A stretch of DNA of 64,000 nucleotides from Eledone cirrhosa. Its lineage: Eukaryota. This document shows, piece after piece, positions 1 to 56,690 of this stretch. The notes below the pieces were generated by a model. The model made no database searches. It saw nothing but the letters and a program-made list of their open reading frames with translations, and had not been told where the DNA came from. The first letter of the stretch is position 1, and the number at the start of each line of letters is the position of its first letter. The translations under genes and the position numbers were made by a program. The stretch lies in contig OZ024743.1 in NCBI GenBank assembly GCA_964016885.1, positions 355,260,001 through 355,324,000 on the forward strand, read 5' to 3'.

Positions 1-1312
1 TATATATACATTCAACAGAGAGTAGAGAGTTTGACAACAGGTCGATGACTTTAGGGTAATGACATGTGGTGGTGGGGAGAGAGTGTAGACGTTATTGTGG
101 TGGTGGGGGACAGTGCGATGTATCTAGTTCATTTGACCGTTTTCTTCTCTTTGCAAAATTTGAATTTTAGCCATGTTATATTGAGATGTAAGTAAATGTA
201 AAATGTAAAATATAAATAAGGATTGCTCTGCTAAAATATACTAAAATATTTGTGTAACTTCCACAAACTTCTGTCGTGACATTCCCGAGTCCAGTAACCA
301 ACAAATTGTTGTATTTTGATGTTTCAGAATACAAAAGTTAATTAAAAACTTACCCCACGAAAAGACAGCGTGTGTTGTCCTATCTATAAGCTCCCTCATA
401 CATATACATATATATACATAAGGGACCTATTCAGACTATCGGAGAATCGTGCCAAACTCGGTTGCCAAATTACCTTCTTAAAACGCTGCCTAAAGAACAA
501 CATCATTCCAACCACCATCAGGAATATACATCTACCCGAATGTTTACGATCACCATCCTTCGAAAACACCATCCGCCACATTCAACGCACGTTTATCAAG
601 AAAATACTACGACACAACCACCACCAACTGCCACTCCATATACAAACGCTTTCCGAGCACATAGATCGTATAGCTCCAACCCTCACCCCTGACCACCAGG
701 TCCAGGAAATACGCAAAGCTATAGATCAGTGTTACCACACCAGAGTCAAATATGATAAACAGCGCCTTATACGGAAATACTAATGGACTGTAAACAAATA
801 CTACAATGACAACATCCGCTCCCACAGACGGACCGACTACAACCACACCAGGGGCAACAGCTATACAACACCCTCCGCTACACCCCCCAACATCGATCTA
901 CCTACCAACGATGCTTCACACCTCGTTACCGACTTAACCGGTACCCTCACCAACGACGAACTCGAACTTCTGCGCCTCGGACCCAAGTTCATCATTACAC
1001 AGCGTCTCGATGATAGACTGAAACTCGACATCGAAACCAACTTCTGTCGGACAGCATATCAACTGAAATGGCTAACCGCCATCCAAAACAACACCGAGAT
1101 CGATTACAACCCCACAACCCACCCCACACTCCCCACGTATCACCTCGACAACCCACTCCACCCCCCACCCACCAACCACGAACTTGACACTAAACTACTC
1201 AGGTTGAAACATTCTATCTCTAACATCCTTTCCCAACACACACACACACAATAAACGCAACCTCACCAATGCACAATTTAATACTCTCACCAACCTAAGA
1301 TCCAGGAACCTT

Positions 1313-2992
1313 GTGTACCTTCCCTCTGACAAGGGGAAAGAATTCTGTGTCATCTCGAGAGAGACCTACAACAACTTAGCTCTCCAACATCTTAATGACC
1401 ACAGCCTCTACTCGAAAGTCACAGGGACCTCCTCGACTCTAATCGAGGAAGGCATTAACACCATATGGACTAACATCTGTGTCCAACGAAAACTGCCAAA
1501 GAAGGTAAAAAACAACATAATGACTCGAAACAGCAAATTACCCACCTTCTACCACTTGGTTAAAACACATAAACAAGGACCCGATTTGAAAATCCGGCCC
1601 ATTGTCTCTAGCGTGGAGGGCCCACTCTACAAAATATCGTGGCTGCTCTCCACACTACTGAAACCCATTCTACACACACTACCAGCCCACGTCTGCAGCT
1701 CAAAGGAGGTCTTGGAGCGACTACACCATCTGGCGCCCAACACCAGAAAGGACAACGGTTATGCCTTCAGTCTTGATGTGGTCGCCCTTTATACCTCCGT
1801 ACCAGCATCCCCAGCCGTCGACCTGTTGACCGAACGAGTCCGAGCATCTAACTTACACTGCTTCGGACTCACACACACGGACATCCACCAACTCCTCTCC
1901 TTCGTTGTGGATAATGCACTCTTCAATTTCCTCGGCCACACGTACAAACAAATCTCTGGGCTACCTATGGGCTCTAGTCTGTCCGGCATACTTGCGATCT
2001 CGTACATGGACCACCTGGAACGCAAGGCACTCAATACCTGCCAACCCAACGCCGTCGCCTTCTACTCCAGATACGTTGATGACATCCTGATACTTACTTC
2101 TTCCCGGGAGATGGCGAATGAAATTCACCAAATCTTCAACGATACTGACCATCACGTCGATTTCACCATCGAACACCCAGGAGAAGACGGGTCACTCGCC
2201 CTCCTCGACTTCCGTATCAACATCTCGGAAGAAGGAGACATAAACACCACCTTCTACCGCAAAACAGCGTGCAAGGACTTATTTGTGCATTATAACTCAG
2301 CCCTCCCCAACAACGCTAAGAGAGGCTATGTCCTAAATGAACTGACACGGATCACTAACAGATGCAGCGACCCGATGGGTGGTCTTACCCATACCACGCA
2401 ATTCCGTAATCTACTCAGATCTAATGGTTATCCCAAGCGACTGATTAACGGAATTAGAGACCCCAGACCCAATAGACAGACACCCACTAGAAACTTAAAT
2501 AAAAGCAGGTGCTTCTTCAAAATCCCCCACCTGAGTGAATATACCACGAACGCCATCCGCAGGGCCATACGGACGGAGGGACTTGACATACATTTGGCCC
2601 ACACAGGACCTTAGCTGCGAAGATGCCTCTCCAACAAACCCGACGAGTCAGATGGGACGTGTTCCCTCAGCAACTGCCCGATACGGGGGGCAGATTGCCT
2701 ACGCACCTATGTCGTATATAAGATTCAATGCGGTAAATGTAACAAGTTTTACATAGGTAGCACCATCCGACCCCTACATGTTCGTATCAAGGAACATATC
2801 AACACCAACGCATCTTCCTTCCGTAAACACATCCTTAAATGCGGAAACCCACAGGGTAGACCCTTGGTCACAGTCCTAGCGACTGAACGCAGCATCGGAT
2901 CCTTAACGATAAAAGAAGCACTTGTTATTAAGAACCTCAGACCCCCACTTAACAACCGGGCTGAGAGAAATGAGCTGACATGGCTAACTTAA
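1313..2992 (+). pseudogene. PLE reverse transcriptase + GIY-YIG endonuclease, premature stop at 2612-2614
   Basis: ORF track plus manual translation through the TAG. Confidence 0.9.
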
Positions 2993-10285: not shown

Positions 10286-10554
10286 TAATTAATATAAAAG
10301 ATGTCCGTCAATGTAAAAAAGGTCCCTATTTACTTTAAATGGTTTATACAAATGCCAAATTAATATGACACAAACAACAAATTATATTACACAAAAATTT
10401 ATTCAGTAATTTCCAGGATCTTAGCCACTGAGTAATAGACAGTCAATGTTGCCCAGAGTTCAACTCGTGGAGGTGGCCTGGTTAGAACTCCATATGGCGG
10501 ATCCTTCTACTTCGAAAATAGAATCGTTTTTCAATATTACTCTAGCCCTGGCCG

Positions 10555-13330
10555 CAGTGGCGGATTTAAGGAATAGGGCCCAGTCGGCATTGGTCAGTAA
10601 GGAGGCCCCAGAGTGAAAATTAAAGTACCTTCTTTTCGAGCGAGTATTGAAAAAGTTTTTTTTTTAATTTCCCATTTAGCTACCAATAATCATTAAGAAG
10701 ACAATTAAATTACAAGTACACTTTATTTGAAACAAACAAACAGATGTGCTGTACTGTAAACAAATAATAAAGTAATAAAGTTGTATATATGTTAGTCTTT
10801 TACACAAATTGCTTTTACATGCGCAGACCTCTGCGAGCTTTAACAGTTGAAAAATGAGTTATAGCGTGGTCCAAGTTTACTGATTTAGTAATTTTGTTTT
10901 CAATTGCCAGCAGGGCAAGACTGGATAGCCTCTCCTGGCCCATCGTTGAACGAAGATAATTTTTAATTCTTCGTAGAACACTGAAAGAGCGTTCCGCACT
11001 TGCTATGCCAATTGGTAAAGTGAGAAATAGCCTTACCAGAATTTCAAACTCGGGAAAGACATCACACAAGTATAAATAACATTTCAGATATGGCATAACC
11101 CCACTTTGTTTTAAAGCTGCGTTTGGCTGTGAAAAGTAGAGGCCAATGAAAGAAAAGAGTGTGAATTCATTTGGAAAGTTATCTACCAATGTTGCTACAT
11201 GTGTTTTTAGTTCATCATCTGAGCATTTAGACAGTCGATTTGGACTCAAAGATCCAAAGATTGAAGATATTTTTTTATTCCTTCAGTTCGGGCTCTCATC
11301 TCCCCAATCATACTATCCAGTGATTGAAAATAAATTGCAGTGCGATATCTATCTGAAGCAGTAGCTAGTCTTTCAACACCACAAACTTCACCATCCATAA
11401 TCTTTCTTCTCCTTACTCGCGTTATTTTAAAATCAGCTTCAGATGCATCAAATCCCACGTCATTCCAGGCTTTCTTTGCCTGGTCCACAAATTGTTCAAA
11501 TTTGTGATCGCATCTGAGTTCTTCCAATTTATCTGTTGAACGTTCAAAGCACTCAGTCACAAGGAATAAATCATTTGCCATATCAAGAAGTTGACTCCAG
11601 CGTCTATTTGAACTAACAAAGAAAGCATAGATAGATTGAATGTTATCAAAGAAGCATTTAATTTCAACAAGAGGTGGAGGAGTATCACTTTGAGCTGCAT
11701 GTTCAAGAACTAGATTGAGTTGGTGGGGAGGACAGTGAACATATGGAACAAAAGTATTTCCGTCCAGTGCCATATTCTTTTTTAGTAAAGCTTGAACACC
11801 ACCTAATGCCCCACTCATCACAGATGCTCCATCATATGCCTGTCCTTTAAGATGTTTGCGCTGCAAGCCAAATTCTTCAAACAATGCCTTTTCAATGACA
11901 CTGGTAATACCAATTGCACTAGCATCAAGGACATGATAATATCCAACAAAGTGTTCTACAATTTCCACTGATTTTTCAAGTCTGTCAATTTTTATAAATC
12001 TCAATAGCACCGCCATTTGGTCCTTATGACTTATATCAGTTGTAGAATCAGCAATCACAGTGAAAAATTTGGCTTCCTTGCAAAGATCAACAATTTTGTC
12101 AAGTGTCATTTTTGAAAGAATCTGGACTTGTTCCTCAAAGATAGTTTTGCTCAGATATTTGAGTTGTCCCTTGTCCTCAAAATGTTGTTTAAGAATAGGA
12201 TCGATTGTGCTTATGTGCCTTAATATTGATAAGTACACACCTGGATTATCAGCATCCAAGAATTCTCTATGACCTCTTAGTGGCAATCCTAGACATGTAA
12301 GTTCCCGTAAAAGTCCGAACTGATGATTAAGAACATATTTCCATTTTTGAACTTCTGCATCCATTTGTTTTTTCACTGAAACTCCAATGGACATATTCTT
12401 GGCGAACTGTTTATAGGCATATACTGCTCTGTGATGAATTTTTGATTGAAAGTGTTTTTCAATGCTTTTGGAAATGTGCTTCCAATCATTCATACTCTTT
12501 GACCATGGCGAGTTTTTGGCCTCTTCATCACCAAATAACCAGCAATGATGGCAGTAACAATAATTACCTTTGTATGAATAAGCTAGCCAGTATCTGTGTA
12601 CTCGTTCTTCAAGGGGTTTTTTTAAATTATAGTAACTGCTCTTGAATTTTCTAGAATGGATAATGGGATAGTCTCCTGTAGGCATATCATTTTCCAAAGG
12701 TTGACAAGCACCCCTTTCAACTAAAATGTTCAAGTAATCTTTCACTTTATTCTTTCCTGTGTCAAATCGTGCTTTGTCATTTAAAAATGGCATTGAAGCC
12801 TGACTAATTTCAGAAAGTTCATTTTCAACTTCAGAAAGACTTATATTTTCTACAGCAGGTTCAGTCACTTGAGAAGGAAGCACAGGTTCAGCCACTTCAG
12901 GAATAGTTTCAGCTTCACCTGTAGATATTGTAGGAATATTTTCTTCTGCAACATCCTCAATATCTGCACTATGGGGCGCAGAAAAAGCCAATAATCTTTG
13001 ATTTTTTGCTTTGCCTGCTGATTCCAAATCCTTTTTTCTTTTGAGTGCACGCTTCTCAGCACCTGATGAAAACTTCTTCTTAACATTGTGAGTCAGTCTA
13101 CAAACAAAATATAAACTAGGCATAGGAAATAATAAAAGGGACTTACCAATTATTTGTTGCTTACACAATTTTAATGCTTTAATATTTTTAAACTGTGGCC
13201 CAATAAAACAACGGCGATATCCAAAAATACCTCCCCCATGCCTAGGGCTAAATAACTTCGCTGTTCGCTGCTGATATGAGGCTAAATAACTTCGCTGCTG
13301 GCTGCTGGCTGCTGAAATGAGGCTATTCCA
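10555..13330 (-). mobile_element. hAT DNA transposon (Tip100/ZMYM1-like), one terminal repeat visible
   Basis: Terminus CAGTGGCGGATTTAAGG at 10555; transposase ORFs 11246-13168 and 10815-11249. The matching right TIR was not found, so the right boundary is approximate. Confidence 0.85.
10815..13086 (-). pseudogene. hAT transposase (TTF-type Zn finger, DUF4371-like core, C-terminal dimerisation domain), frameshifted
   Basis: WLAYS..YCHHCWLF, LRGHRE, ADSTTDISHKDQ, GQAYDGASVMSG, YVHCPPHQLNL, ASAERSFSVLRRIKNYLRSTMGQERLSSLALLAIE; frameshift at ~11250. Confidence 0.92.
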
Positions 13331-13594
13331 ACAAATTTACATTCCCTTTTTTTTAGCCGTTAAAAGAAATATAGATTTATTTATTTATTTGAAACGTTTT
13401 TGTTAGTTTCATTGTTTTGTTTTTTTGGCGATATTTTTGTTAGTTTCTTTGCTTTTTTTTAGTTTCTTTTTTTGGGCGTTTTTTGCCAGGTTTTTTTTTA
13501 TAGATATATTTATTTATTTTTAACGTTTTTGTTAGTTTTTGTTTTGTCTTTATGTCACAAAGATTGCTCTCCGACGCTCTACCGATAATAGTAA

Positions 13595-16038: not shown

Positions 16039-19000
16039 TTAAACCTTATTTAATGTTGGTCTATATTTTTGAATAAACATATTTTCCTTATTTATTCGCA
16101 TTTGTTCTGTTGTATTGTTAGCGCAAAGGTAAAATGGGAAGACTTGGAATTTGGGTGTCTTATTACTTGCGCAAATGTCTAGATGTCCACTTAGTGGTAT
16201 CTGTCTCGTGGTTGGATCTCGTAATTGTTGGCGATGAACTGTTATTCTGTTTCTGAGTGTGAGTTTAGTTTGTCCTATATAATCTTCATTGCATCCTTTA
16301 CATTTAATGGCATAAATTAGATTTTTTGATGAGCAAGTGAAGTGATTTTTTACAGTAAAATTTTGTCCTGATTTAAATGTATACGTGTTGCCTTCAATGA
16401 GGTGAGTGCAGGTTCCACAATTAGAGCGACCACATTTTTTGATACTTGGTTGTGGGTTTGTGGTAGGTAATTTGGCATTGGTGAGTAATGTTTTCAGTGA
16501 TTTTGGTTGTCTTTTGCTTTTGATTATTTTGTGTGTTTCAAGGGCTTTTTTCATTCTTGGGTTTTGTTTTAGTAGTGGGATGTTATTGTGAATAGTGTTG
16601 TAAGCTTCCGCATTTCTTGGGTTGTGTGTTGAGATATATGATAGAATATTGGACGTACCTTGAATTTGTTTCTGTTTCCGTAATTCATCAATGCCTATTG
16701 CTTTAGCCCTTTCTATTCCATTATTTATTAGTAATAGTGGGTACTCTCTCTCAAGTAGAATTTCCTTTAATTCTTGAAGTCTTTTATTTCGCGTTTCATA
16801 ATTGGAGACAATTGTGCAAATTCTTCTTGCTAGGTTAAAAGGAATGTTCGTCTTCGTGTGCTTTGGATGGTTGGGGGTGAATAGCAGATATTGTTTGGAA
16901 TCTGTTGGTTTGTAGTGTATGTCAGTTTCGATATTTGTGTCTTTTTTTGTGATTAAGATGTCCAGAAATGGGAGTTGATCTTGGCTGTATTCCATTGTGA
17001 ATTGGATGTGGTTATTGATGCCGTTTATTAAGTTTTTGAAATCCTTCAGTTGGTCGAGTGTGTGGGACCAAAGAATGAGGCAATCATCCAAGTAGCGTTT
17101 CCAATTCTCTGATAAATATTTGTGGAAGTTCAATCCGTATTTTGATTTGGACTGTTCATATATCTGGACTTCTAAGTATGCCATGACTAAGTTGGCATAA
17201 GTTGGAGCGGCTTTTGTTCCCATCGCAGTCCCCGATATTTGCTTGTAAGTATTGCCATCGAAATCAAAAAAGTTGTTCTGTAGGATGAATTTTAATCCCT
17301 CGGTGATGAAGCTTTTTTCTATTCTGTCAGGTATCTCATTGGGATATTTCTCTAGCCAGAATCCTATTGCTTCTAGTCCGTATTGGTGTGGGATCGTTGT
17401 GTAGAGATTCACTACATCGAAAGACACAATAATAGTGTCGTTGTTGACATGTTTGGGGAGGTGGTTTAAGAGGTCCAGATCGTCTCTTACAAGGCTTGGT
17501 ATGTGTTTCAGTATTGGTTTCAGTAGTATGTCTATAAAGTTGCTCTATCTGTGTGTTTCACATTGTGGGCCCGCTACAATTGGTCTTAATTTAAGGTCTG
17601 TGGGGTATTGTGTGTTCACGCAGGCTGAGGTGGATTGTTTACAGGCATCGTTGATTATTTTACATTTGTGGATCTTTGGAAGTCCGTAAAGGTTGCTGGT
17701 TTTGTATTCAAAATTTGTTAAATAATCGCGTTCCTTTTTAGTTAGGTCTTCCTGGTATCGATAAATCAGTGTGTTTAATTTGGTCATTATTTTTGATTGC
17801 TGGTAGTTTTTTACTCTTTCATAGTAATTAGCATTTTGTAAGAGAGAGAACATAGAATTTTTATATTTTTCAGCCTCCATAATGACAACAGTACTTCCCT
17901 TGTCCGCTTCCTTAATTACAATGTCCGGATTGTTGTTTAGTTCATGGATAATCTCCCATTCCCTTCGACTTGTGTTGGGTTTGGGTTTAGGTTGCGGTAG
18001 TTCATGGTATGGGAAGGTGGCTATGTGGTCACAAAATTTGTCCAGAACTCTGTTTCTACCTTTTGTTGGGTTGTAGCTGCTTTTATTCCGTACAATTGAT
18101 TCGTCGTTATTCTCCTTGTCAAAGAATTCCTCTGTGAGACGTAATTTTCTACAGAAGTGTGAGATATCGTCATTTATCTCGTTGGGGTTAGGATATTGTG
18201 GTGTTGGTGTGAATTTCAGACCTTTGGAGAGAATTTTTACTTGTTGGGCTGAGAGGTTTGTATTTGAAATGTTAATTATTTTCGGTTTTTCAAAATCGGT
18301 TTGTGCCACCGGGTGTCGTGAGTCCTGTAGCCTTGGTCTAAAAAATGATTTTTCTGGAATGTTTTTTCATTGGTATTATTATCTCTAATGGTATTTCCCC
18401 TGTTGTTGTGTGGTCTTGTATAGAAGTTTCGGACGTATTGAGGTTCGGTTTGTTGATAGTCCGGGTTGTAGATTTGATTCCTTTGTGTGGGTTGGGATCT
18501 ATGGTTTTGGAACAGGCTCTGTGTGGGCAGGGGTCTACGGTTTTGGAATAGGTTTTGTGTGGGTTGTGATCTGCGGATCAGGTCCTGCCTTGTGTTCGGG
18601 GATCTTTGGTTTTTGTTAGTAGGGTTATAGTTTTGTCTATGGTTTCTGGGATTATCGTTATAGTTTTGCTGGGGGTATGTTGGACGTTTAGTTACTTTTT
18701 TTGTTATTTGTTGTGCATGTGGTGTGTGAGTTTTAGTTTGTTTTAAAAATGGGTTACCTGTATGTTGTTCATTTTTGAAGTCCATTTCGTAGTTGTTGAA
18801 CCAGGTGGCGTTTTTTTCCCATCGCTGGAGGGATGTGAGTTCTTCATCCTCACAGTTTTCTTTCCAAAGTTTTAGGGGGTTTTTGTAGAGTAGGCCTTCA
18901 GAGTGCTTTGAGATTTCTGTGTCCATCTGTTGGTCGAGTGACTTGAATTTTTCTTCGTTGGTGTTGGCTCTTAATCGCAACAGTTCTATTTCTGTTTTAA

Positions 19001-19119
19001 ATTTTTCCAATGCCATCTTTTCCCTAAGTCTTTGTTGGTTTTCTGGTTCATTCGGGATGGGTTTTATTTGGAGTTTTTTGGGGAGGATGATTGGGGTAGA
19101 GTTTAGCCACTTTTCATAT
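16039..19119 (-). pseudogene. PLE polyprotein: N-terminal region, RT, Cys linker, GIY-YIG endonuclease
   Basis: KGLKF, ADKG, LPKIHK, RPIV, SFDVVNLYT, GTAMGT, YLDD, CGRSNCGTC, LIYAIKCKGCNEDYIGQT..R..H. One in-frame TAG at 17545-17547 and one frameshift at ~18310-18350; the reading frame is cut at the inversion junction. Confidence 0.93.
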
Positions 19120-19594
19120 ATGTAAAGGATGCAATGAAGATTATATAGGACAAACTAAACTCACACTCAGAAACAGAATGACAGTTCATCGCCAACAATT
19201 ACGAGATCCAACCACGAGACAGATACCACTAAGTGCACATCTAGACATTTGCGCAAGTAATAAGACACCCAAATTCCAAGTCTTCCCATTTTACCTTTGC
19301 GCTAACAATACAACAGAACAAATGCGAATAAATAAGGAAAATATGTTTATTCAAAAATATAGACCAACATTAAATAAGGTTTAATATACATTATGTCAAC
19401 ACCACAATATGACATACACACACACACACATAACACCTTCTACTTTAGAAAATAAAAACCCGAACTAAATAAACCTTAAACATACGTTTGCACTGGCAAT
19501 ACAACTGCAAACACGAAAAAGTCAGGAAATATGTTCATTCAAAAATATTCCTACTAAAGGAATCATTTTCCTACACACACACATACACACACAC

Positions 19595-20655: not shown

Positions 20656-20704
<49 letters not shown>

Positions 20705-21372
20705 TAATTTAATATATCAACTAACATAAGCGCACAGATGCACGCCCATGCCAGCAAATACACAGGTTATGTCATAGTACCTAGGTGGTTCAATGCAGGA
20801 GAATGCAGAACAATAATATAAAGGACGTAAAATAAGAAAATATTTTTTTTTTTTTTTTTTTTTTTAAATTTAAAAAAAATTTTAAAAAAATTTTTAAAAA
20901 ATTTTTTACTTACTTAAATTTTCACTCCAACTAATAAGTTTCTGCAATGGGATAAAGACAGTTACGTAATCCAACTTACGTAATTCTCCTGCATTGAACC
21001 ACCTAGGTACTATGACATAACCTGTGTATTTGCTGGCATGGGCGTGCATCTGTGCGCTTATGTTAGTTGATATATTAAATTATCTATATTTATCTCCAAA
21101 TCACTGATTTGTCGAGCAAACTTGTCAAAACCACTTCTAAAAAAATTTTTTTTGGGGTGTTAGTAGGCGTCAGTCATCTTACCATCCCATTCCTTCTAAC
21201 TAGCCTCTGTGTCACGTGATTGATTCTTTAGAATCGGCCATTTGACTTGAAGCAGTGAGAATTTCGGTACATAGAATCCAGTCCTCGCAAGCTGTTCGAT
21301 CTACCGAATTATTATTATTTTTATATGAGCCGCCAGTGTCCGCGCATTGTCTGGAGACTTAACTGAGAATAG

Positions 21373-21454
21373 ACTCCCTGATGACGCAATGAATTCTCGA
21401 CAGTTGGATTACGTAACTGTCTTTATCCCATTGCAGAAACTAATTAGTTGGAGT
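21373..21454 (+). ncRNA. Type I hammerhead ribozyme with extended, branched stem II
   Basis: ACTCC-CTGATGA-C-GCAATG..GACAGTT(9)AACTGTC..CATTGC-A-GAAAC-TAATTA-GTT-GGAGT; co-varies with the copy at 34958-35039. Confidence 0.88.
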
Positions 21455-21504
21455 GAAAATTTAAGTAAGTAAAAAATTTTTTTTAAATTTTTTTAAAATT
21501 TTTT

Positions 21505-21543
<39 letters not shown>

Positions 21544-21622
21544 TTTCTTATTTTACGTCCTTTATATATATATATATATATATATATATTTAGTTTTGTA
21601 ATAAACTACATAAGATAATTAT

Positions 21623-25499: not shown

Positions 25500-26135
25500 A
25501 TTAAGGAGGTTAAGGTTCGAAAAGATTATAAGTATGGGTCTCTAGTAGACAGAGGTTACAGAATGTATTAGGTGGTTTGTACGATGCCGCCTTACCTATC
25601 ACTTCCCATTGTAGTGTATATGATCTATTTTTAGTTTTCAGATAGTGTATGTAGCTAGATAGTGAAGTGGAGTTGGCTAGACAGTGTTTTTTGAAAGAAT
25701 GGAGATGTGAGTTGTATCTCGTTTTGAAGCAGTTCGAAGTAGAGCCTATATAGGTTTCAGAAGAGTTGCTAGTTCTGACCGTGCATGAGTAGATGATGTC
25801 CTTGATTAAGTAGTTTTTACCTAAAGGGCAGGTTCTATTAGATCTACAGTTACATTTATTTTGGATGTTAACCTATCGGTTATTATGTTGTGTAGAAGTC
25901 TGGTTGCTAGGTATTGCATTATGGCTATGAAGGTTGTCGCTCCTAATGCTATTGATTTCATTAGTGTTATTACTATTATTACTATTGATATCAGGGTTTG
26001 TAGTTATTACGTTGTTTTGAAAGTTTACTCCCTGCTGTGTTTTAGTTTGTTGAAAGTAAGTATTAATCTTTCTTTTATTGCTACTAGCTATGTGGTATGC
26101 TATGTTAGGCGTGGTAAAGTAGGAGATTTTAATGG
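25500..26135 (-). mobile_element. Naiad-like PLE remnant (thumb/linker/GIY-YIG), degraded
   Basis: NTIKISYFTTPNI, then CNCRSNRTCPLGK..IIYSCTV..TYIGSTSNCFKTRYNSH in broken frames. Confidence 0.75.
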
Positions 26136-26649
26136 TGTTTTTATATATATACACACATATACATACGTATAAATAAATACACGCACACATACAGACATAC
26201 ACACAAACATATACTTATACAAAAGAATAATAAAAAAACTATAAAGGTAAGTACACATGAGTCTGTCTGCGAATGCGCCTGCACACAGTCCTATGTGAGA
26301 ACATAAAACCTAGTGGGTAAGTGAGGACAAGAGGGGAGTAAAAATGAAATAAAAACAATTATAAAGAGTAGGTAAGGGAGAAATGTATGCGAAGAGATCT
26401 AGATAAGAGTATCTGGTTAAGGAGTAAACTGAGTAAAGAATAAAGATGGTGGGTGGGTGGGTGTAAAAGGTAAGGTAGAAAGTAGGGGTGAATATAAGTC
26501 AACAGAAAAATAAATATAATAAGAAAAAAATAAATATAAGCAGATATAGGAGGAGGTGAGGGAGAAAAAGAATATATAGGTAAGGAATGTGAGTTCAGAG
26601 AGTAATAATAATCGTAGTGGATGGAAGGCGTAATGAGTAAAGAAGCTCA

Positions 26650-27185
26650 AGGTGGTTGAGTCATCGTAGGAATGTCAATCCAGTTACAAAGTAGATGCGA
26701 TTTCAGGTGAGGACAACATCTGAAGATCTCGGTCTTGGAATTAAGGCAAATGGAAGTGGCTTTCAAATTTTGGAGAATTCTAAATTTTTCCGTGGTGCAC
26801 AAAGAACAATTCTTTGCGCCCCTTTGGTATTCTCTTGGATGGTCTAAAATATACCAATCAATAGTGTACGGAATGTTTTTGCCTTTGAATTCCGACACTT
26901 TAATTGCGAGGGCTGTGCTGTTCTTTTCTCAGGGTGTTTAAAAGAAGTGACATGTGCATAATACCTTGTTTTGAACCTATCCTGAGTCATGCCAACATAT
27001 CGTTCACTCCAGGCTGGCTCGTTATTAATCAACGGTGTCAATTTGGCCTCATACATAATGAATTTAGTGTTACATTTGCCCTGTAATGGGCATTCTTCCG
27101 GCTTCCTGCAACTGCATCCTGGATTTACTCTCGTACGATTAGAGTTGGTAATTTTAGTCTTCATTGATGGACAGAAAGAGTAACA
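26650..27185 (-). mobile_element. Naiad-like PLE GIY-YIG fragment
   Basis: CSCRKPEECPLQGKC..IMYEA..YVGMTQDRFKTRYYAH; next frame YTIDWYIL..CSLCTTEK..LNSKTEIFRCCPH. Confidence 0.85.
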
Positions 27186-27194
27186 GGATGTGCA

Positions 27195-27409
27195 CAGATG
27201 TGAGAAAAACCACAGACCCTCCATCTCAACTCTACTTTTGAAAAGCAGAAGAATTGCGAAACCGGTAAAGGAACCAAATAAATATATATATTTTATTTTT
27301 TTTTAAATATGACTCCAGTTGCATTTTCGATTTCATCTTTTTTTCTTTATACTTTCACTCGTGTAGGACACCTCGGTTATTTTTCATTTTGTAAAAAACC
27401 TCACTTTCT

Positions 27410-34788: not shown

Positions 34789-34957
34789 TCAGTGTCACGT
34801 GATTGATTCTTTAGAATTTGCCACTTACCCAGTAGGCAGTGAATTTTTTCAGTGCTTTGGAATTTAGTCCCCGCTAGCTTTATTCCATCCACTGAATTAT
34901 TATTTTTATATGGGTTCCTAGTGTCCGCGCATTGCCTGGGAACTTAGCTGAGAATAG

Positions 34958-35039
34958 ACTCCCTGATGACGTAAGGACTTCTCTATAGTTATGTTACGTA
35001 ACTATATTTATTCCCTTACAGAAACTAATTAGTTGGAGT
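34958..35039 (+). ncRNA. Type I hammerhead ribozyme with extended, branched stem II (second copy)
   Basis: ACTCC-CTGATGA-C-GTAAGG..TATAGTT(9)AACTATA..CCTTAC-A-GAAAC-TAATTA-GTT-GGAGT. Confidence 0.88.
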
Positions 35040-35207
35040 GAACATTTTAGTAAGTTAATTTTTAATTTTTAAAATTTTCTTATTTTACGTCTTTCATATA
35101 ATTGTTCTGCATCCCCCTGCATAGAACCACAAAGGTACTAAGACATAACATACATATTTGCTAGCATGGGTATACATCTGTATACATATGTTGGTAGATA
35201 TACTAAT

Positions 35208-35258
<51 letters not shown>

Positions 35259-36395: not shown

Positions 36396-38236
36396 GCCAA
36401 TATGGAGGTACATATGAACGCACGTACACACAACGATACACATACAAAAGAACGGCCACTCATACAAATACATACAAACATGTACTTATAAATATATGCA
36501 TATACACAGGCACATAAAAACAGCTCTACAAGCAGAAAATACAGATAGGTAAGAGGTACTTACATAATCATAGTGCCGTGTTTCAGGTTGAGAAGGGGTA
36601 GGAATGAGGTAGAGGGGCTATTTTGTCCGGTGGCGTTAAAAAAAGAACAAAAAATAAAGGGGAAGTCGTTTTTAGCCATCGAGCATTAACACTGGCTTAA
36701 GGTATTTGAAAGTTGCAAAGTTTTTGTGCATGCAGTTCGGGCAGTGTTCAGAGAGTTTGTTCAGTAGCGGGCCCTTGGCGAATAATATTTCGTAGCTCTC
36801 TGAGATACAAAGGTCGCGGCACTTGTGTCCTCCGTTGTATGAGCGCGCTTACTGGAGTATTTTCCATTTAAGCGTGAAGGGTGGACTTCCTTTTGAGGTC
36901 CCAAACATAGTAGGCGTGTGTTGTCTGATTTGATTTGTCCGGTTTTCTGAAGGAGTGGGTACGGGTCTTAAATTTATTGGAAGTCATGCCGATGTAAGTC
37001 GTTTTGTTGTTGCAATCATCGGTGCCTGAGATGACATCGCATTTGTGTACGATATCATTTGTCAGGCATTTGTTTTCAAGTGGGCAGGCTTCTTTATTTA
37101 GGCAGTTACACAAGGCCTCAGTCCGGGGATTGGGTTCGGAGGTGGTTGGCTTATTTAATTTATTAGAATTGTGATTGGTTATATTCCTAGCCAGGTTAGG
37201 TGTAGTGGAGTAGGAGAGTCTTATTGTGTTCTTATTAAAGATGGTGTAGTACCTGTGTTGTATGGGGAAGTGTGTTTTCAGCAAAGTGAAGAAAATCCTA
37301 GCTATAGGTGTAGAGACCTCTTTATTGAAGGGAGGGTTGTACCAGCTAATCTACCTATGCCTATTCCTCCTATGCGGTCTTGCGGTGATGTCTAGGTAGG
37401 TTATCTTTTCTTTAAATCCGGTGCGGGCGAGGGCGTCATTGTAGTAGGAGGCAAAGGCGTTAAATATATCTTCATTGGCCGAGAGACGCTTTTTACTAAG
37501 TTATCAGTGAAGTTTTTGGGGTGGTTAGAATTAACATTAATATATCTAAGGGACTCATTAGGTTTGTGGTACGGATAATAGAAGGAAGTATCTAGGTCGA
37601 GAGTGACATCTAAAAAGTTGGCCCTAGTCTTATTAGATTGTATAGTTATACTAAATCATAGATTACGGAAGAACGAGCTTAAGTTTCTCCGAAACCCATC
37701 GGTGGTTCTGGGGTTAACCTTGTGCAGGCCGAAGAGGCCGTCGTCTCGGTATAAACGTCCGGTTAGACAAGTAAAAAGGTTCTTCGGGTGTTGTAAAATG
37801 TAGAGGCCCACAGGGTCGCTTATTTCAGCCGAGTCACTCGCTCCCACGCTGACGTCAAATGGGGTCTGAGACTTCTTGTTGATCCAGTAAGATCCATCGT
37901 GGTATAGGAAGGTCTTACGGGCATGGAGTATAACATCTTGCTCAGCATCGGTTATGGTAGTAAAATTCCTAGCAAAAGTGATTGCGTCCTTCAGGAGGGG
38001 CTCCGAGATAGAGGCATAGTAGTTTTCTATGTCGAGTTGCAGGAAGCGAGTGTGGCGTTTGTCGGGTAATTCTTGGAACTAAGATATTGCCTCAGATGTT
38101 CTGCTCCAGAGTGGGAGTGGTGAGGCAACCCGCAATGATGGTAGAACTCTATCAAAGATCTTCTTACTGATAGAGCCGATGTCCGAACGAGTGAGGTTTA
38201 TATGTCTGACTGATGGTTTGTTGAGGAAGTTTCCCT
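36395..38236 (-). mobile_element. Naiad-like PLE (RT + GIY-YIG), 5'-truncated and degraded
   Basis: [85 protein letters not shown]. The 3' UTR segment 36401-36536 is duplicated at 35532-35666. Confidence 0.88.
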
Positions 38237-38264
38237 TATGTATATATATGTGGGTGTGTGTATG

Positions 38265-38347
<83 letters not shown>

Positions 38348-38368
38348 GTATATATATGTATATATATG

Positions 38369-38462
<94 letters not shown>

Positions 38463-38548
38463 GGAAAATTTGAACAGGAACAAACCAGAGAGGCAGTACA
38501 ACGAATGTTTATTAATTTCACGCTCTGGAGAGTGGGGTGGTGGTGGGG

Positions 38549-38582
38549 AACGACGTTTCGGGCATAAGCCCTTCCTCAGGTG
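38549..38582 (-). ncRNA. Minimal type I hammerhead of a PLE 3' terminus (38460-39260)
   Basis: CTGAGGA-A-GGGC-TTAT-GCCC-GAAAC-GTC; weak stem I. A 5'-truncated copy lies on the plus strand at 60148-60262. Confidence 0.8.
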
Positions 38583-39256
38583 AGAAGTGTGTGGGAAGAG
38601 AGTTCAAAGGGTGTGTAGGGGAGTGGTGGAGAGACATATAGCGAAAAATGGGTGGGAGGAAACGGTGCGAATGAAATTAAAAATAAAAATAAAAATAAAG
38701 CATGATCAAAATAAAATGAAATGAAATAAAAATAAATATAAAAGCATGATCAAAATAAACTGAAATTAAAAAGGGGTAAAACAGGTGGTGGAAGGGTGTA
38801 GGGTGTGTAGGGGTGGTGGCGGGTGGAGTGAGGAGAGAGAGACGGGGTGTCCGAGCGGGGAGGGCTGAAGGTGGTGTGTGTGTGTAGGTGTACGTGTGTG
38901 TGTGTATGTGTGTATGTGTGTATGTGAAAGCAAGGGTTGGGGGAAGAACGGGGTTGCATGTTCAGGAAGAGGTGTGTGTGGGGTGGGGTGTAGGTCGGAG
39001 TGTGTGTGCGTGTGTGGATAGAGGGGTGGGGGGAGAGGAATCCGCAGGCTGAAGGTGTAAATATGTGGTGGAAAGCACGTGTGTGTGGGGTTAAGCGTGT
39101 TGTCGGCGTAGGTGGCGTGTGGGAGAAAAAACATTTTTTGGGGTGTGTGTGTGGGTGAGTTATATAGGTGATTCTGTAAGAGGATGTGGTTGAAATGTTG
39201 GTAAACTCCTATGATGGTAGTAGATTCCACGGTGGTCAAGTGTGTGTGGGGGGGGG

Positions 39257-41289: not shown

Positions 41290-41610
41290 TAGAAAGTGAG
41301 GTTTTTTCACAAAATGAAAATAAACGAGGTGTCCTACACGAGTGAAAGTATAAGGAAAAAGATGAAATCGAAAATGCAACTGGAGTCTTTTTTAAAATAT
41401 TTATTTGGTTCCTTTACCGGTTTCGCAGTTCTTGTGTTTTTCAAAAGTAGAATTGAGATGGACGGTTCTCGAGAAAAACCACAAACCCTCCATCTCAATT
41501 CTACTTTTGAAAAGCACAAAAACTGCGAAACCGGTAAAGGAGCCAAATAAATATATATTTTTTTTAAAAGACTCCAGTTGCATTTTCGATTTCATCTTTT
41601 TTCCTTATAT
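41290..41610. repeat. Head-to-head inverted pair of PLE 3' termini with U3:A8 hammerheads
   Basis: Arms ~41349-41462 and ~41489-41608; hammerheads 41411-41448 (-) and 41503-41540 (+). Confidence 0.88.
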
Positions 41611-56304: not shown

Positions 56305-56690
56305 ATAAAATATTAAACAAATAATGAATAAACAATTCCTTATATTAAACAAAAAAAGTTCATTATTTAACGATCGTTTCTAGGGTATATATGTGTTATA
56401 ATTGGTATGCATATTCAACAGATCTATGTACAAAATTATACAAAATTATACAAATTATCAAGATTAAATATACATACCTAACACATATATACGCCGTCTT
56501 CAGAAGACGGCGTATATATGTGTTAGGTATGTATATTTAATCTTGATAATTTGTATAATTTTGTATAATTTTGTACATAGATCTGTTGAATATGCATACC
56601 AATTATAACACATATATACCCTAGAAACGATCGTTAAATAATGAACTTTTTTTGTTTAATATAAGGAATTGTTTATTCATTATTTGTTTA

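What the first reader, a model, noticed from the sequence alone, without database searches (positions are those of the whole stretch)
21209..21565. Hammerhead with branched stem II showing compensatory base changes between two copies
Seen: copies at 21373-21454 and 34958-35039 keep an identical core, stem I (ACTCC/GGAGT) and palindromic stem III (AACTAATTAGTT). Stem II changes GCAATG/CATTGC to GTAAGG/CCTTAC, and the nested hairpin changes GACAGTT/AACTGTC to TATAGTT/AACTATA. That is four base pairs changed on both sides with pairing kept. The ~165 bp upstream (starting GTCACGTGATTG) is also homologous and non-coding. Inference: selection on an RNA structure with an extra domain inserted in stem II, unlike the usual short PLE stem II. 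This is a candidate new HHR subtype.
Basis: partly seen in the sequence, partly recalled or inferred. Interest (0 to 1): 0.85.

Follow-up and report, generated by a model that had tools for sequence, protein, structure and literature searches.

The report
Pseudoknot-clamped hammerhead in tandem retroelement
This is a hammerhead-ribozyme motif carried by a short non-coding repeat with thousands of copies in this animal genome; its unusually long second stem holds an internal loop that is predicted to clamp onto stem I by base pairing (possibly as a triple helix), a layout that the standard RNA family library misses and whose self-cleavage is still untested.

Summary
It is a 6-bp stem, a 7x7 pyrimidine-rich internal loop and a distal hairpin. 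The two copies belong to two subfamilies of a non-coding 520-560 bp unit. A core pattern matches 8,694 times in the genome against 3 control matches. The unit forms short tandem and inverted arrays with two fixed 3' ends in (TA)n and scattered 5' ends, as Penelope-like elements do. It is a non-LTR retrozyme, a known kind of element.

In 38 aligned copies the proximal stem is 100% paired with covariation. In some sister families the opposite loop strand also fits a U.A-U/C.G-C third strand (p 2e-4 to 7e-4). That fit is weak in the focal family.

Rfam finds no hammerhead here. Cleavage, expression and the mobilising partner are untested or not found. Verdict: a new variant of a known kind.

The parts
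20703..20976 (-). Inverted, 5'-truncated copy of the unit: starts inside the distal hairpin of stem II, runs through the cleavage site and ends at fixed 3' end 2 (about +203) in (TA)n
20983..21565 (+). Direct copy of the subfamily A unit (from about +92 of the unit round through the ribozyme to fixed 3' end 1, about +80, in (TA)n); its poly(A) tract is expanded
20662..20702 (.). (TA)n flank left of the insertion; the right flank (TA)n is at 21563-21589
21357..21362 (+). 5' strand of the predicted distal stem I (pairs with about 21461-21471, which overlaps the splice-donor-like motif)
   Evidence: folding; no covariation tested
21365..21370 (+). Loop I purine strand GAGAAT, predicted pseudoknot strand 1
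21373..21454 (+). Type I hammerhead motif, copy 1: stem I 21373-77/21450-54; core CUGAUGA 21378-84; unpaired C21385 and A21435; GAAA 21436-39; stem III 21439-48; predicted cleavage after U21449
21386..21434 (+). Extended stem II: proximal stem 21386-91/21429-34, internal loop 21392-98/21422-28, distal hairpin 21399-21421
21393..21398 (+). Internal-loop 5' strand ATTCTC, predicted pseudoknot strand 2
21465..21470 (+). GTAAGT, a motif like a 5' splice donor, 15 nt after the predicted cleavage site; similar motifs follow the site in sister families
   Evidence: function untested
34789..35212 (+). Single 5'-truncated copy of the subfamily B unit, ending at 3' end 2 in (TC)n(TA)n
34958..35039 (+). 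Type I hammerhead motif, copy 2; predicted pseudoknot 34950-54 with 34979-83; predicted cleavage after 35034

Best explanation
The motif is a type I hammerhead sequence inside a 520-560 bp non-coding unit that lies in thousands of short tandem and inverted arrays, and it likely self-cleaves multimeric transcripts of the unit, with a predicted pseudoknot between loop I and the internal loop of stem II standing in for the usual loop-loop contact. Shown: the unit, its copy number, the array layout, the conserved core, and covariation in both halves of stem II and in the pseudoknot. Inferred: (a) arrays are transcribed; (b) the GAGAA/UUCUC helix holds stems I and II parallel and activates the core, either as a monomer (3-bp stem III) or, more stably, as a dimer through the 10-bp palindrome; (c) a Penelope-like reverse transcriptase/endonuclease nicks (TA)n and starts copying inside the RNA at two fixed sites, 80 and 203 nt past the cleavage site, so the template must be a re-ligated circle or an uncleaved multimer; (d) early termination and template switches give the scattered 5' ends and the inversions. 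The distal hairpin is inferred to be structural, closing the loop.
For: Copy number: 4,744 + 3,950 matches against 0 + 3 for the control pattern. Spacing between same-strand ribozymes is 521-569 bp. The longest ATG ORF is 22-53 aa in 9 of 54 monomers checked. 3' ends: 31 of 32 distinct ends lie at +80-83 or +198-203, followed by AT repeats; 5' ends scatter from +7 to +559; 15 of 24 distinct arrays hold both orientations. This matches the PLE signatures in PMC8557442 (passages) and PMC11167929 (parts 1-2 of 4). Covariation in 38 copies: 93.4% of cells paired against 84.9% shuffled and 36-49% slid; proximal stem 100%; pseudoknot 96.3% with one G-C>A-U change in 6 copies. On a tree built outside the ribozyme, two proximal pairs changed at least 3 and 2 times (read by eye). 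Genome counts: GAGAA with TTCTC 7,886; GAAAA with TTTTC 508; GAAAA with TTCTC 57. Across divergent families the pairs read GGAAAA/TTTTCC, GAGGAA/TTTCTC, TTGAGT/ACTCAA, AAGAA/TTCTT and GAAAAG/CTTTTC. Matched pairing beats permuted pairing at p 1e-4 to 5e-3 over three clusterings (31, 22 and 16 unfiltered representatives), and the far-upstream and downstream controls do not. Pseudoknots between stems I and II speed cleavage in tested hammerheads (PMC3088659 section 7). The circular monomer folds at z = -4.2 (40 shuffles).
Against: There are no cleavage or expression data. The base of stem II has an unpaired C and A where most PLE hammerheads have one bulge followed by G-C directly before GAAA, which may slow cleavage. 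The pseudoknot-free minimum-energy fold traps the core against the stem III palindrome and is 2.5 kcal/mol below the active monomer fold in both copies; RNAalifold picks the same trap. GAGAA can also pair with the strand after stem I, which costs 0.5 kcal/mol (copy 1) or 4.1 kcal/mol (copy 2) to open. Within the focal family the pseudoknot has only one compensatory event. The two pair-counting measures did not beat the shuffles (207/500 and 206/500). In one search the control with the 3' loop strand was weakly positive on helix length (p 0.013-0.047), and one far-upstream control reached p 0.042. Representatives are related, so the permutation p values are optimistic. No autonomous PLE sharing this unit was found. 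In an Anolis PLE, ribozyme cleavage needed protein and was not required for insertion in vitro. Eight of nine Xenopus retrozyme dimers did not cleave (10.64898/2026.07.22.740005).
Confidence: 0.65

Rival explanations
1. Triple-helix clamp: the internal loop works like a U-rich internal loop (ENE-type), one pyrimidine strand pairing Watson-Crick with the loop I purines and the other adding U.A-U and C.G-C Hoogsteen triples.
For: The parallel match (A>U, G>C) between the loop I strand and the 3' loop strand beats permutation at p 2e-4 to 7e-4, with runs of 7, 6, 6 and 5 in L187, L186, L204 and L205. In the L187/L191 family the 3' strand carries the parallel reading and the 5' strand the antiparallel one. 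U tracts oppose U tracts in the L117/L136 family.
Against: The run is only 2 in the focal representative. One group of families has an A-rich 3' strand (L019, L130, L150, L152). Pyrimidine opposite pyrimidine is also the trivial way to keep a loop open. The same test on the 5' strand is positive too (p 0.001-0.026), because the tracts are nearly symmetric. The best examples come from about two lineages. The test was devised after seeing the sequences.
Confidence: 0.3
2. The fold is kept mainly as a protein-binding or processing signal for the PLE machinery. The RNA cleaves slowly or only with protein, and new arrays are copied from uncleaved multimers.
For: Insertions end 80 and 203 nt beyond the cleavage site. 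The base of stem II is non-canonical and varies among families (C/A, T/T, G/C, A/T, A/G). The trap fold is favoured. The Anolis PLE ribozyme is protein-assisted and dispensable in vitro.
Against: The core is kept across families whose flanks barely align. A covarying tertiary clamp is what fast hammerheads use. Coral and mussel retrozymes cleave at about 0.8 and 0.1 per min and accumulate as circles (PMC7229834 parts 2-3 of 6).
Confidence: 0.25
3. One reading: the distal hairpin is a separate functional domain (regulatory or protein-binding) grafted into stem II.
For: Five of six distal pairs show changes on both sides, and a distal hairpin is predicted in most sister families folded.
Against: Its length and loop sequence vary freely, from a much shortened form (L073) to over 15 bp (L186). 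There is no multibranch junction. The conserved, covarying sequence lies in the internal loop and not in the hairpin.
Confidence: 0.1
4. GAGAA simply extends stem I by pairing with the U-rich strand after the cleavage site, and its complementarity to UUCUC comes from base composition.
For: Nearest-neighbour folding forms this extension in both copies. The GAAAA subfamily also has more Ts downstream.
Against: Across families, loop I against the downstream strand is no better than permuted (p 0.09-0.77). Several families have a purine-rich downstream strand. The C>T change in the internal loop that accompanies G>A is explained only by the pseudoknot.
Confidence: 0.12

Closest known systems
Metazoan non-LTR retrozymes (PMC7229834; 10.64898/2026.07.22.740005)
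   Same: Non-coding, low-GC tandem units with one type I hammerhead each, thousands of copies, several families, co-occurring with PLEs.
   Different: The unit is 520-560 bp, longer than the 150-450 bp in PMC7229834 but within the 51-972 bp range of the 2026 preprint. Stem II spans about 50 nt. Arrays are short and often inverted, with two fixed 3' ends in (TA)n. Circular RNA is not shown.
PLE pLTR hammerheads (PMC4209133)
   Same: Type I, palindromic short stem III, 6-bp proximal stem II, extra nucleotide after A9.
   Different: Published representatives have short loops II and lack recognised tertiary contacts. Here there is an internal loop, a distal hairpin, a covarying pseudoknot and an extra A before GAAA (one of 56 rows in Suppl. 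Fig. S3 also shows AGAAA). No ORF is attached.
Pseudoknot-stabilised hammerheads (PMC3088659)
   Same: A 5-6 bp helix between loop I and the strand leaving stem II. About 40% of the hammerheads in that survey are predicted to use one, in all three types.
   Different: In the passages read, the partner is a terminal loop or 3' tail. Here it is one side of a closed internal loop, with a possible third strand.
Atypical type III hammerheads of toad and termite HDV-like RNAs and a Drosophila pseudoobscura motif (PMC7936874)
   Same: Short stem, internal loop, extra hairpin of about 20 nt, with the loop's 5' sequence pairing to the other loop.
   Different: Mirror image: there the extension is on helix I in a type III ribozyme; here it is on helix II in a type I ribozyme with a palindromic stem III.
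ENE / U-rich internal loop triple helices (recalled; search listing only)
   Same: A pyrimidine-rich internal loop capturing a purine strand.
   Different: ENEs bind a 3' A-rich tract to block decay. Here the captured strand would be loop I of a ribozyme, and the focal family fits only 2-3 triples.

Membership tests
Hammerhead ribozyme, type I | CUGANGA and GAAA core, NUH site, three helices with stem I open | tested here: met
   core kept in 38 of 38 aligned copies apart from one CUGACGA (copies were collected by a core pattern)
Hammerhead ribozyme, type I | G10.1-C11.1 pair directly flanking the core | tested here: inconclusive
   An invariant G-C pair is present (38 of 38) but is set off by an unpaired C and A; it is either a double insertion or a mismatch at 10.1/11.1
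Hammerhead ribozyme, type I | Site-specific self-cleavage | not testable with these tools
   No RNA holder listed; needs an assay
Rfam hammerhead families | Covariance-model match | tested here: not met
   No hammerhead hit at E<=10 on 21250-21500; none among the 150 of 187 rows shown for the whole window
Non-LTR retrozyme | Tandem units each with a type I hammerhead | tested here: met
Non-LTR retrozyme | Non-coding, low GC | tested here: met
   Longest ATG ORF 22-53 aa in 9 of 54 monomers; GC 0.30 in the 2-kb bin holding copy 1
Non-LTR retrozyme | Expressed as a self-paired circular RNA | not testable with these tools
   Only the predicted fold was tested (63% paired, z -4.2)
Non-autonomous Penelope-like element | Partial tandems, inverted 5'-truncated copies, alternative 3' ends (tail), microsatellite targets | tested here: met
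   the tail here is about 122 nt against 30-40 bp in PMC8557442
Non-autonomous Penelope-like element | Sequence shared with the pLTR of an autonomous PLE | tested here: inconclusive
   None found beside two PLE families (30 loci each) or in flanks of 210 loci; the search was far from exhaustive
Pseudoknot-stabilised hammerhead | Covarying helix between loop I and loop II | tested here: met
Pseudoknot-stabilised hammerhead | Loss and rescue of rate by single and double mutants | not testable with these tools
   bench assay
ENE-type triple helix | Run of 4 or more in-register Y.R-Y triples | tested here: inconclusive
   Sequence fits in some sister families (runs of 4-7), not in the focal representative (run of 2)

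The most novel reading that the evidence does not exclude
This genome carries a whole radiation of type I hammerheads, invisible to Rfam, in which stem II is an ENE-like pyrimidine internal loop that captures loop I as a pseudoknot plus major-groove triple helix. That would be a third way of clamping the hammerhead fold. The ribozyme sits just upstream of a conserved splice donor, in retrozymes whose fixed internal 3' ends record copying by a Penelope enzyme from an RNA circle.
Probability: 0.25. Interest if true: 0.72.

Novelty: new variant of a known kind. Interest (0 to 1): 0.5.

Why it matters
Animal PLE-type hammerheads are described as minimal, slow and lacking tertiary contacts. Here a large set of families appears to keep a base-paired clamp, with natural compensatory variants that make the test straightforward. 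If the triple helix holds, it is a tertiary motif that my searches did not find reported for hammerheads. Because Rfam misses the motif, it may be undercounted in other genomes. The two fixed 3' ends, the inversions and the (TA)n targets add insertion-signature evidence for the proposal that retrozymes are moved by Penelope-like enzymes, which the papers read argue from shared features, co-occurrence and pLTR phylogeny.

Tried and rejected
Rfam: no hammerhead hit.

ORF-like stretch upstream of copy 2: it is flank, since only the window's own locus matches it.

Autonomous partner: none found. tblastn with six window PLE segments over 210 loci gave only neighbouring fragments. L068 and L061 are separate insertions divided from the unit by (TA)n. 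Thirty loci each of two abundant PLE families share no real DNA similarity with the unit; the weak hits were AT-repeat noise that the reversed control also gave.

Expression: no RNA holder listed. Runs X4-X6 hold only 2-3 contigs each, mostly of low depth and some near-identical, so they say nothing about spread to other species. The metagenome pattern scan found 0 matches.

Rolling circle against linear multimer: differences within arrays (mean 3.5, n=11) and between arrays (median 4, n=367) do not separate the two.

Wobble-over-mismatch excess (228 against 57): mostly an artefact, as 11 of 20 sampled rows still hold TTCTC. Not used as evidence.

The constrained fold had an off-by-one error and was redone. 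One search's pattern also catches an unrelated LINE coding sequence, so its total of 3,705 is not a ribozyme count.

Earlier scan findings: none.

Literature: seven searches listed no paper describing this architecture. One used 'octopus' as an untested guess at the host group. Lunse et al. (PMC5785218, on PLE hammerhead variants) is not held. The supplement of PMC7229834 could not be read, one supplementary file of PMC4209133 was not searched, and figures are not visible. Any of these could show similar motifs, including the Adineta variant in Fig. S5B of PMC4209133.

Full report
Observation. Both motifs lie where stated. Copy 1 has stem I 21373-77/21450-54, core CUGAUGA 21378-84, stem II 21386-21434, GAAA 21436-39, a palindromic stem III and GUU ending at 21449. 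The four two-sided changes are real; as a matched set their chance is about 3e-4 before asking for complementarity. Stem II is a single helix broken by a 7x7 internal loop, not a branch. An unpaired C and A flank its base. Rfam gives no hammerhead hit.

The element. DNA searches of the 3.0-Gb genome gave 603 and 3,584 first-look candidates for the two copies, and the 40 scored for copy 1 were all listed at 100% identity. A core pattern matches 8,694 times against 3 for the control. Same-strand ribozymes are spaced 546-569 bp in subfamily A and 521-542 bp in the others. The monomers align along their length and have no ORF above 53 aa in the 9 of 54 checked. In the 30 best subfamily A loci (24 distinct arrays), one search lists 38 3' ends, six of them repeats from overlapping loci. 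Of the 32 left, 15 lie at +80-83 and 16 at +198-203 from the cleavage site, each followed by AT repeats. The last is the window copy, where BLAST broke at an expanded poly(A) and the end is +80 by eye. The 46 listed 5' ends scatter from +7 to +559, and 15 of 24 arrays hold both orientations. The window insertion at 20703-21565 is one such head-to-head structure between two (TA)n tracts. Partial tandems, inverted truncated copies, a tail and (TA)n targets are PLE traits (PMC8557442, passages). Two internal reverse-transcription starts define the tail in an Anolis PLE (PMC11167929, parts 1-2 of 4). Tandem non-coding units with type I hammerheads are non-LTR retrozymes (PMC7229834, parts 2-3 of 6 and passages), argued to derive from PLEs (10.64898/2026.07.22.740005, parts 1-3 of 5). 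I did not find the autonomous partner.

Covariation in stem II. I aligned 38 of 109 distinct copies, chosen by hand to balance subfamilies and to leave out 5'-truncated ones. For the named structure, 93.4% of cells pair, against 84.9% in shuffles and 36-49% when slid. The proximal stem is 100% paired, with one pair seen as A-U, G-C, U-A and C-G and another as G-C and U-A. The distal hairpin has five pairs with two-sided changes but is only 79.5% paired, partly through misalignment. The two pair-counting measures did not exceed the shuffles. On a tree of 17 monomers built from sequence outside the ribozyme, the two proximal pairs changed at least three and two times (read by eye; several inner branches are unresolved).

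The pseudoknot. GAGAA(U), ending 2-3 nt before stem I, is complementary to (A)UUCUC on the 5' side of the internal loop. One subfamily has GAAAA with UUUUC, while copies with the same proximal stem but UUCUC keep GAGAA (L105). Genome-wide, the matched combinations number 7,886 and 508, and the mismatched A.C combination 57, scattered over subfamilies. The G.U combination (228) is inflated by pattern overlap. This is one evolutionary event. Looser patterns revealed many divergent families with the same stem, loop and hairpin layout. Their two strands read GGAAAA/TTTTCC, GAGGAA/TTTCTC, TTGAGT/ACTCAA, GAGTT/AGCTC, AAGAA/TTCTT, CAGAA/TTCTG and GAAAAT/ATTTTC. One further family met by chance reads GAAAAG/CTTTTC. 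With unfiltered representatives at three clustering levels (31, 22 and 16, including truncated and probably spurious ones), matched pairing beats permuted pairing at p 1e-4 to 5e-3. A far-upstream window is not significant in 8 of 9 tests, the downstream strand in none of 6, and the 3' loop strand is weakly positive on helix length only. Relatedness makes these p values optimistic. The position of the stem II partner matches the published type II pseudoknot, whose disruption slows cleavage 20- to over 100-fold (PMC3088659, section 7 and passages). A mirror-image design on helix I is described for type III ribozymes (PMC7936874, passages). The PK hammerhead crystal structure is a different topology, in which the pseudoknot replaces helix II (PMC11300833, part 1 of 6).

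A possible third strand. The 3' side of the internal loop matches the loop I purines in the parallel code A>U, G>C better than permuted (p 2e-4 to 7e-4), with runs of 5-7 in four representatives. The focal representative gives only 2, one group has an A-rich strand, and symmetric tracts make the 5' strand score too. The likeness to ENE triple helices is recalled; I saw only a search listing. I put it at about 0.3.

Mechanism and doubts. The likely cycle is transcription of an array, clamp-assisted self-cleavage as monomer or dimer (the palindrome duplex is -9.0 kcal/mol), and PLE-driven copying into (TA)n from two internal starts. Those starts lie past the cleavage site, so the template is a circle or an uncleaved multimer; one search does not decide between them. 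Against fast cleavage: the active monomer fold is 2.5 kcal/mol above a trap that pairs the core with the palindrome (pseudoknot energy not included, the duplex alone -5.8), the base of stem II is non-canonical, and many related ribozymes are slow or protein-assisted. A motif like a splice donor follows the cleavage site in 29 of 44 clusters, against 2 upstream and a shuffled mean of 2.6. The pattern was written after seeing the data, and many clusters are kin. It fits the known PLE pLTR intron, but no conserved acceptor was established.

Novelty. The element is a known kind. The ribozyme layout did not appear in seven searches, in the passages read from reviews and a 2026 paper, or among the 56 representatives in PMC4209133 Suppl. 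Fig. S3 (parts 1-2 of 3). One key paper and one supplement were unavailable, and figures could not be seen. Verdict: new variant of a known kind, interest 0.5.

Noticed in passing
window 39802 (+) and 45788 (-); L258:3054, L259:3042, L267:2175: A second, abundant hammerhead-like family with a very short stem II (U.U at the base) and a longer stem III; the window copies look degenerate.
   Followed up: no
window 16039-19154 (-); G000 loci L211-L240: A young Penelope-like family with a C-terminal GIY-YIG domain and many intact 775-aa frames. Its downstream repeat holds a UUGAAGA...GAAAU hammerhead-like variant. The clade label (Neptune-like) is recalled from motifs and was not tested.
   Followed up: partly
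window 346-2992 (+), 36868-38603 (-), 25510-27302 (-): Further broken Penelope-like elements of at least two other types; the type at 36868 has over 40,000 first-look candidates in the genome.
   Followed up: partly
window 10412-10491 (-): Weak HDV-like ribozyme match, 33.7 bits against a gathering score of 44, E 0.019, next to a hAT-like transposase frame at 10815-13336 (-) (label recalled).
   Followed up: no
window 41402-41549 and 56462-56542: Near-perfect long inverted repeats, probably MITE-like; they give spurious miRNA hits.
   Followed up: no
window 21209-21217 and 21357-21362: A GTCACGTG palindrome (E-box-like, recalled) is kept in nearly all subfamilies about 165 nt upstream of the ribozyme and may be an internal promoter element. 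ACTTA upstream of loop I can pair with the GTAAGT donor-like motif and would mask it before cleavage.
   Followed up: partly
L019:854, L130:2467, L150:4078, L152:3979, L174: Sister families with a GAGU/ACUC pseudoknot and an A-rich 3' loop strand, suggesting A-minor contacts instead of a pyrimidine third strand; one has a 669-bp unit.
   Followed up: partly
L189, L193, L195: Another long-stem-II hammerhead-like family without an evident loop I pseudoknot.
   Followed up: no
window 21350: Copy 1 carries a T where nearly all other copies and contigs read C: a private change.
   Followed up: yes
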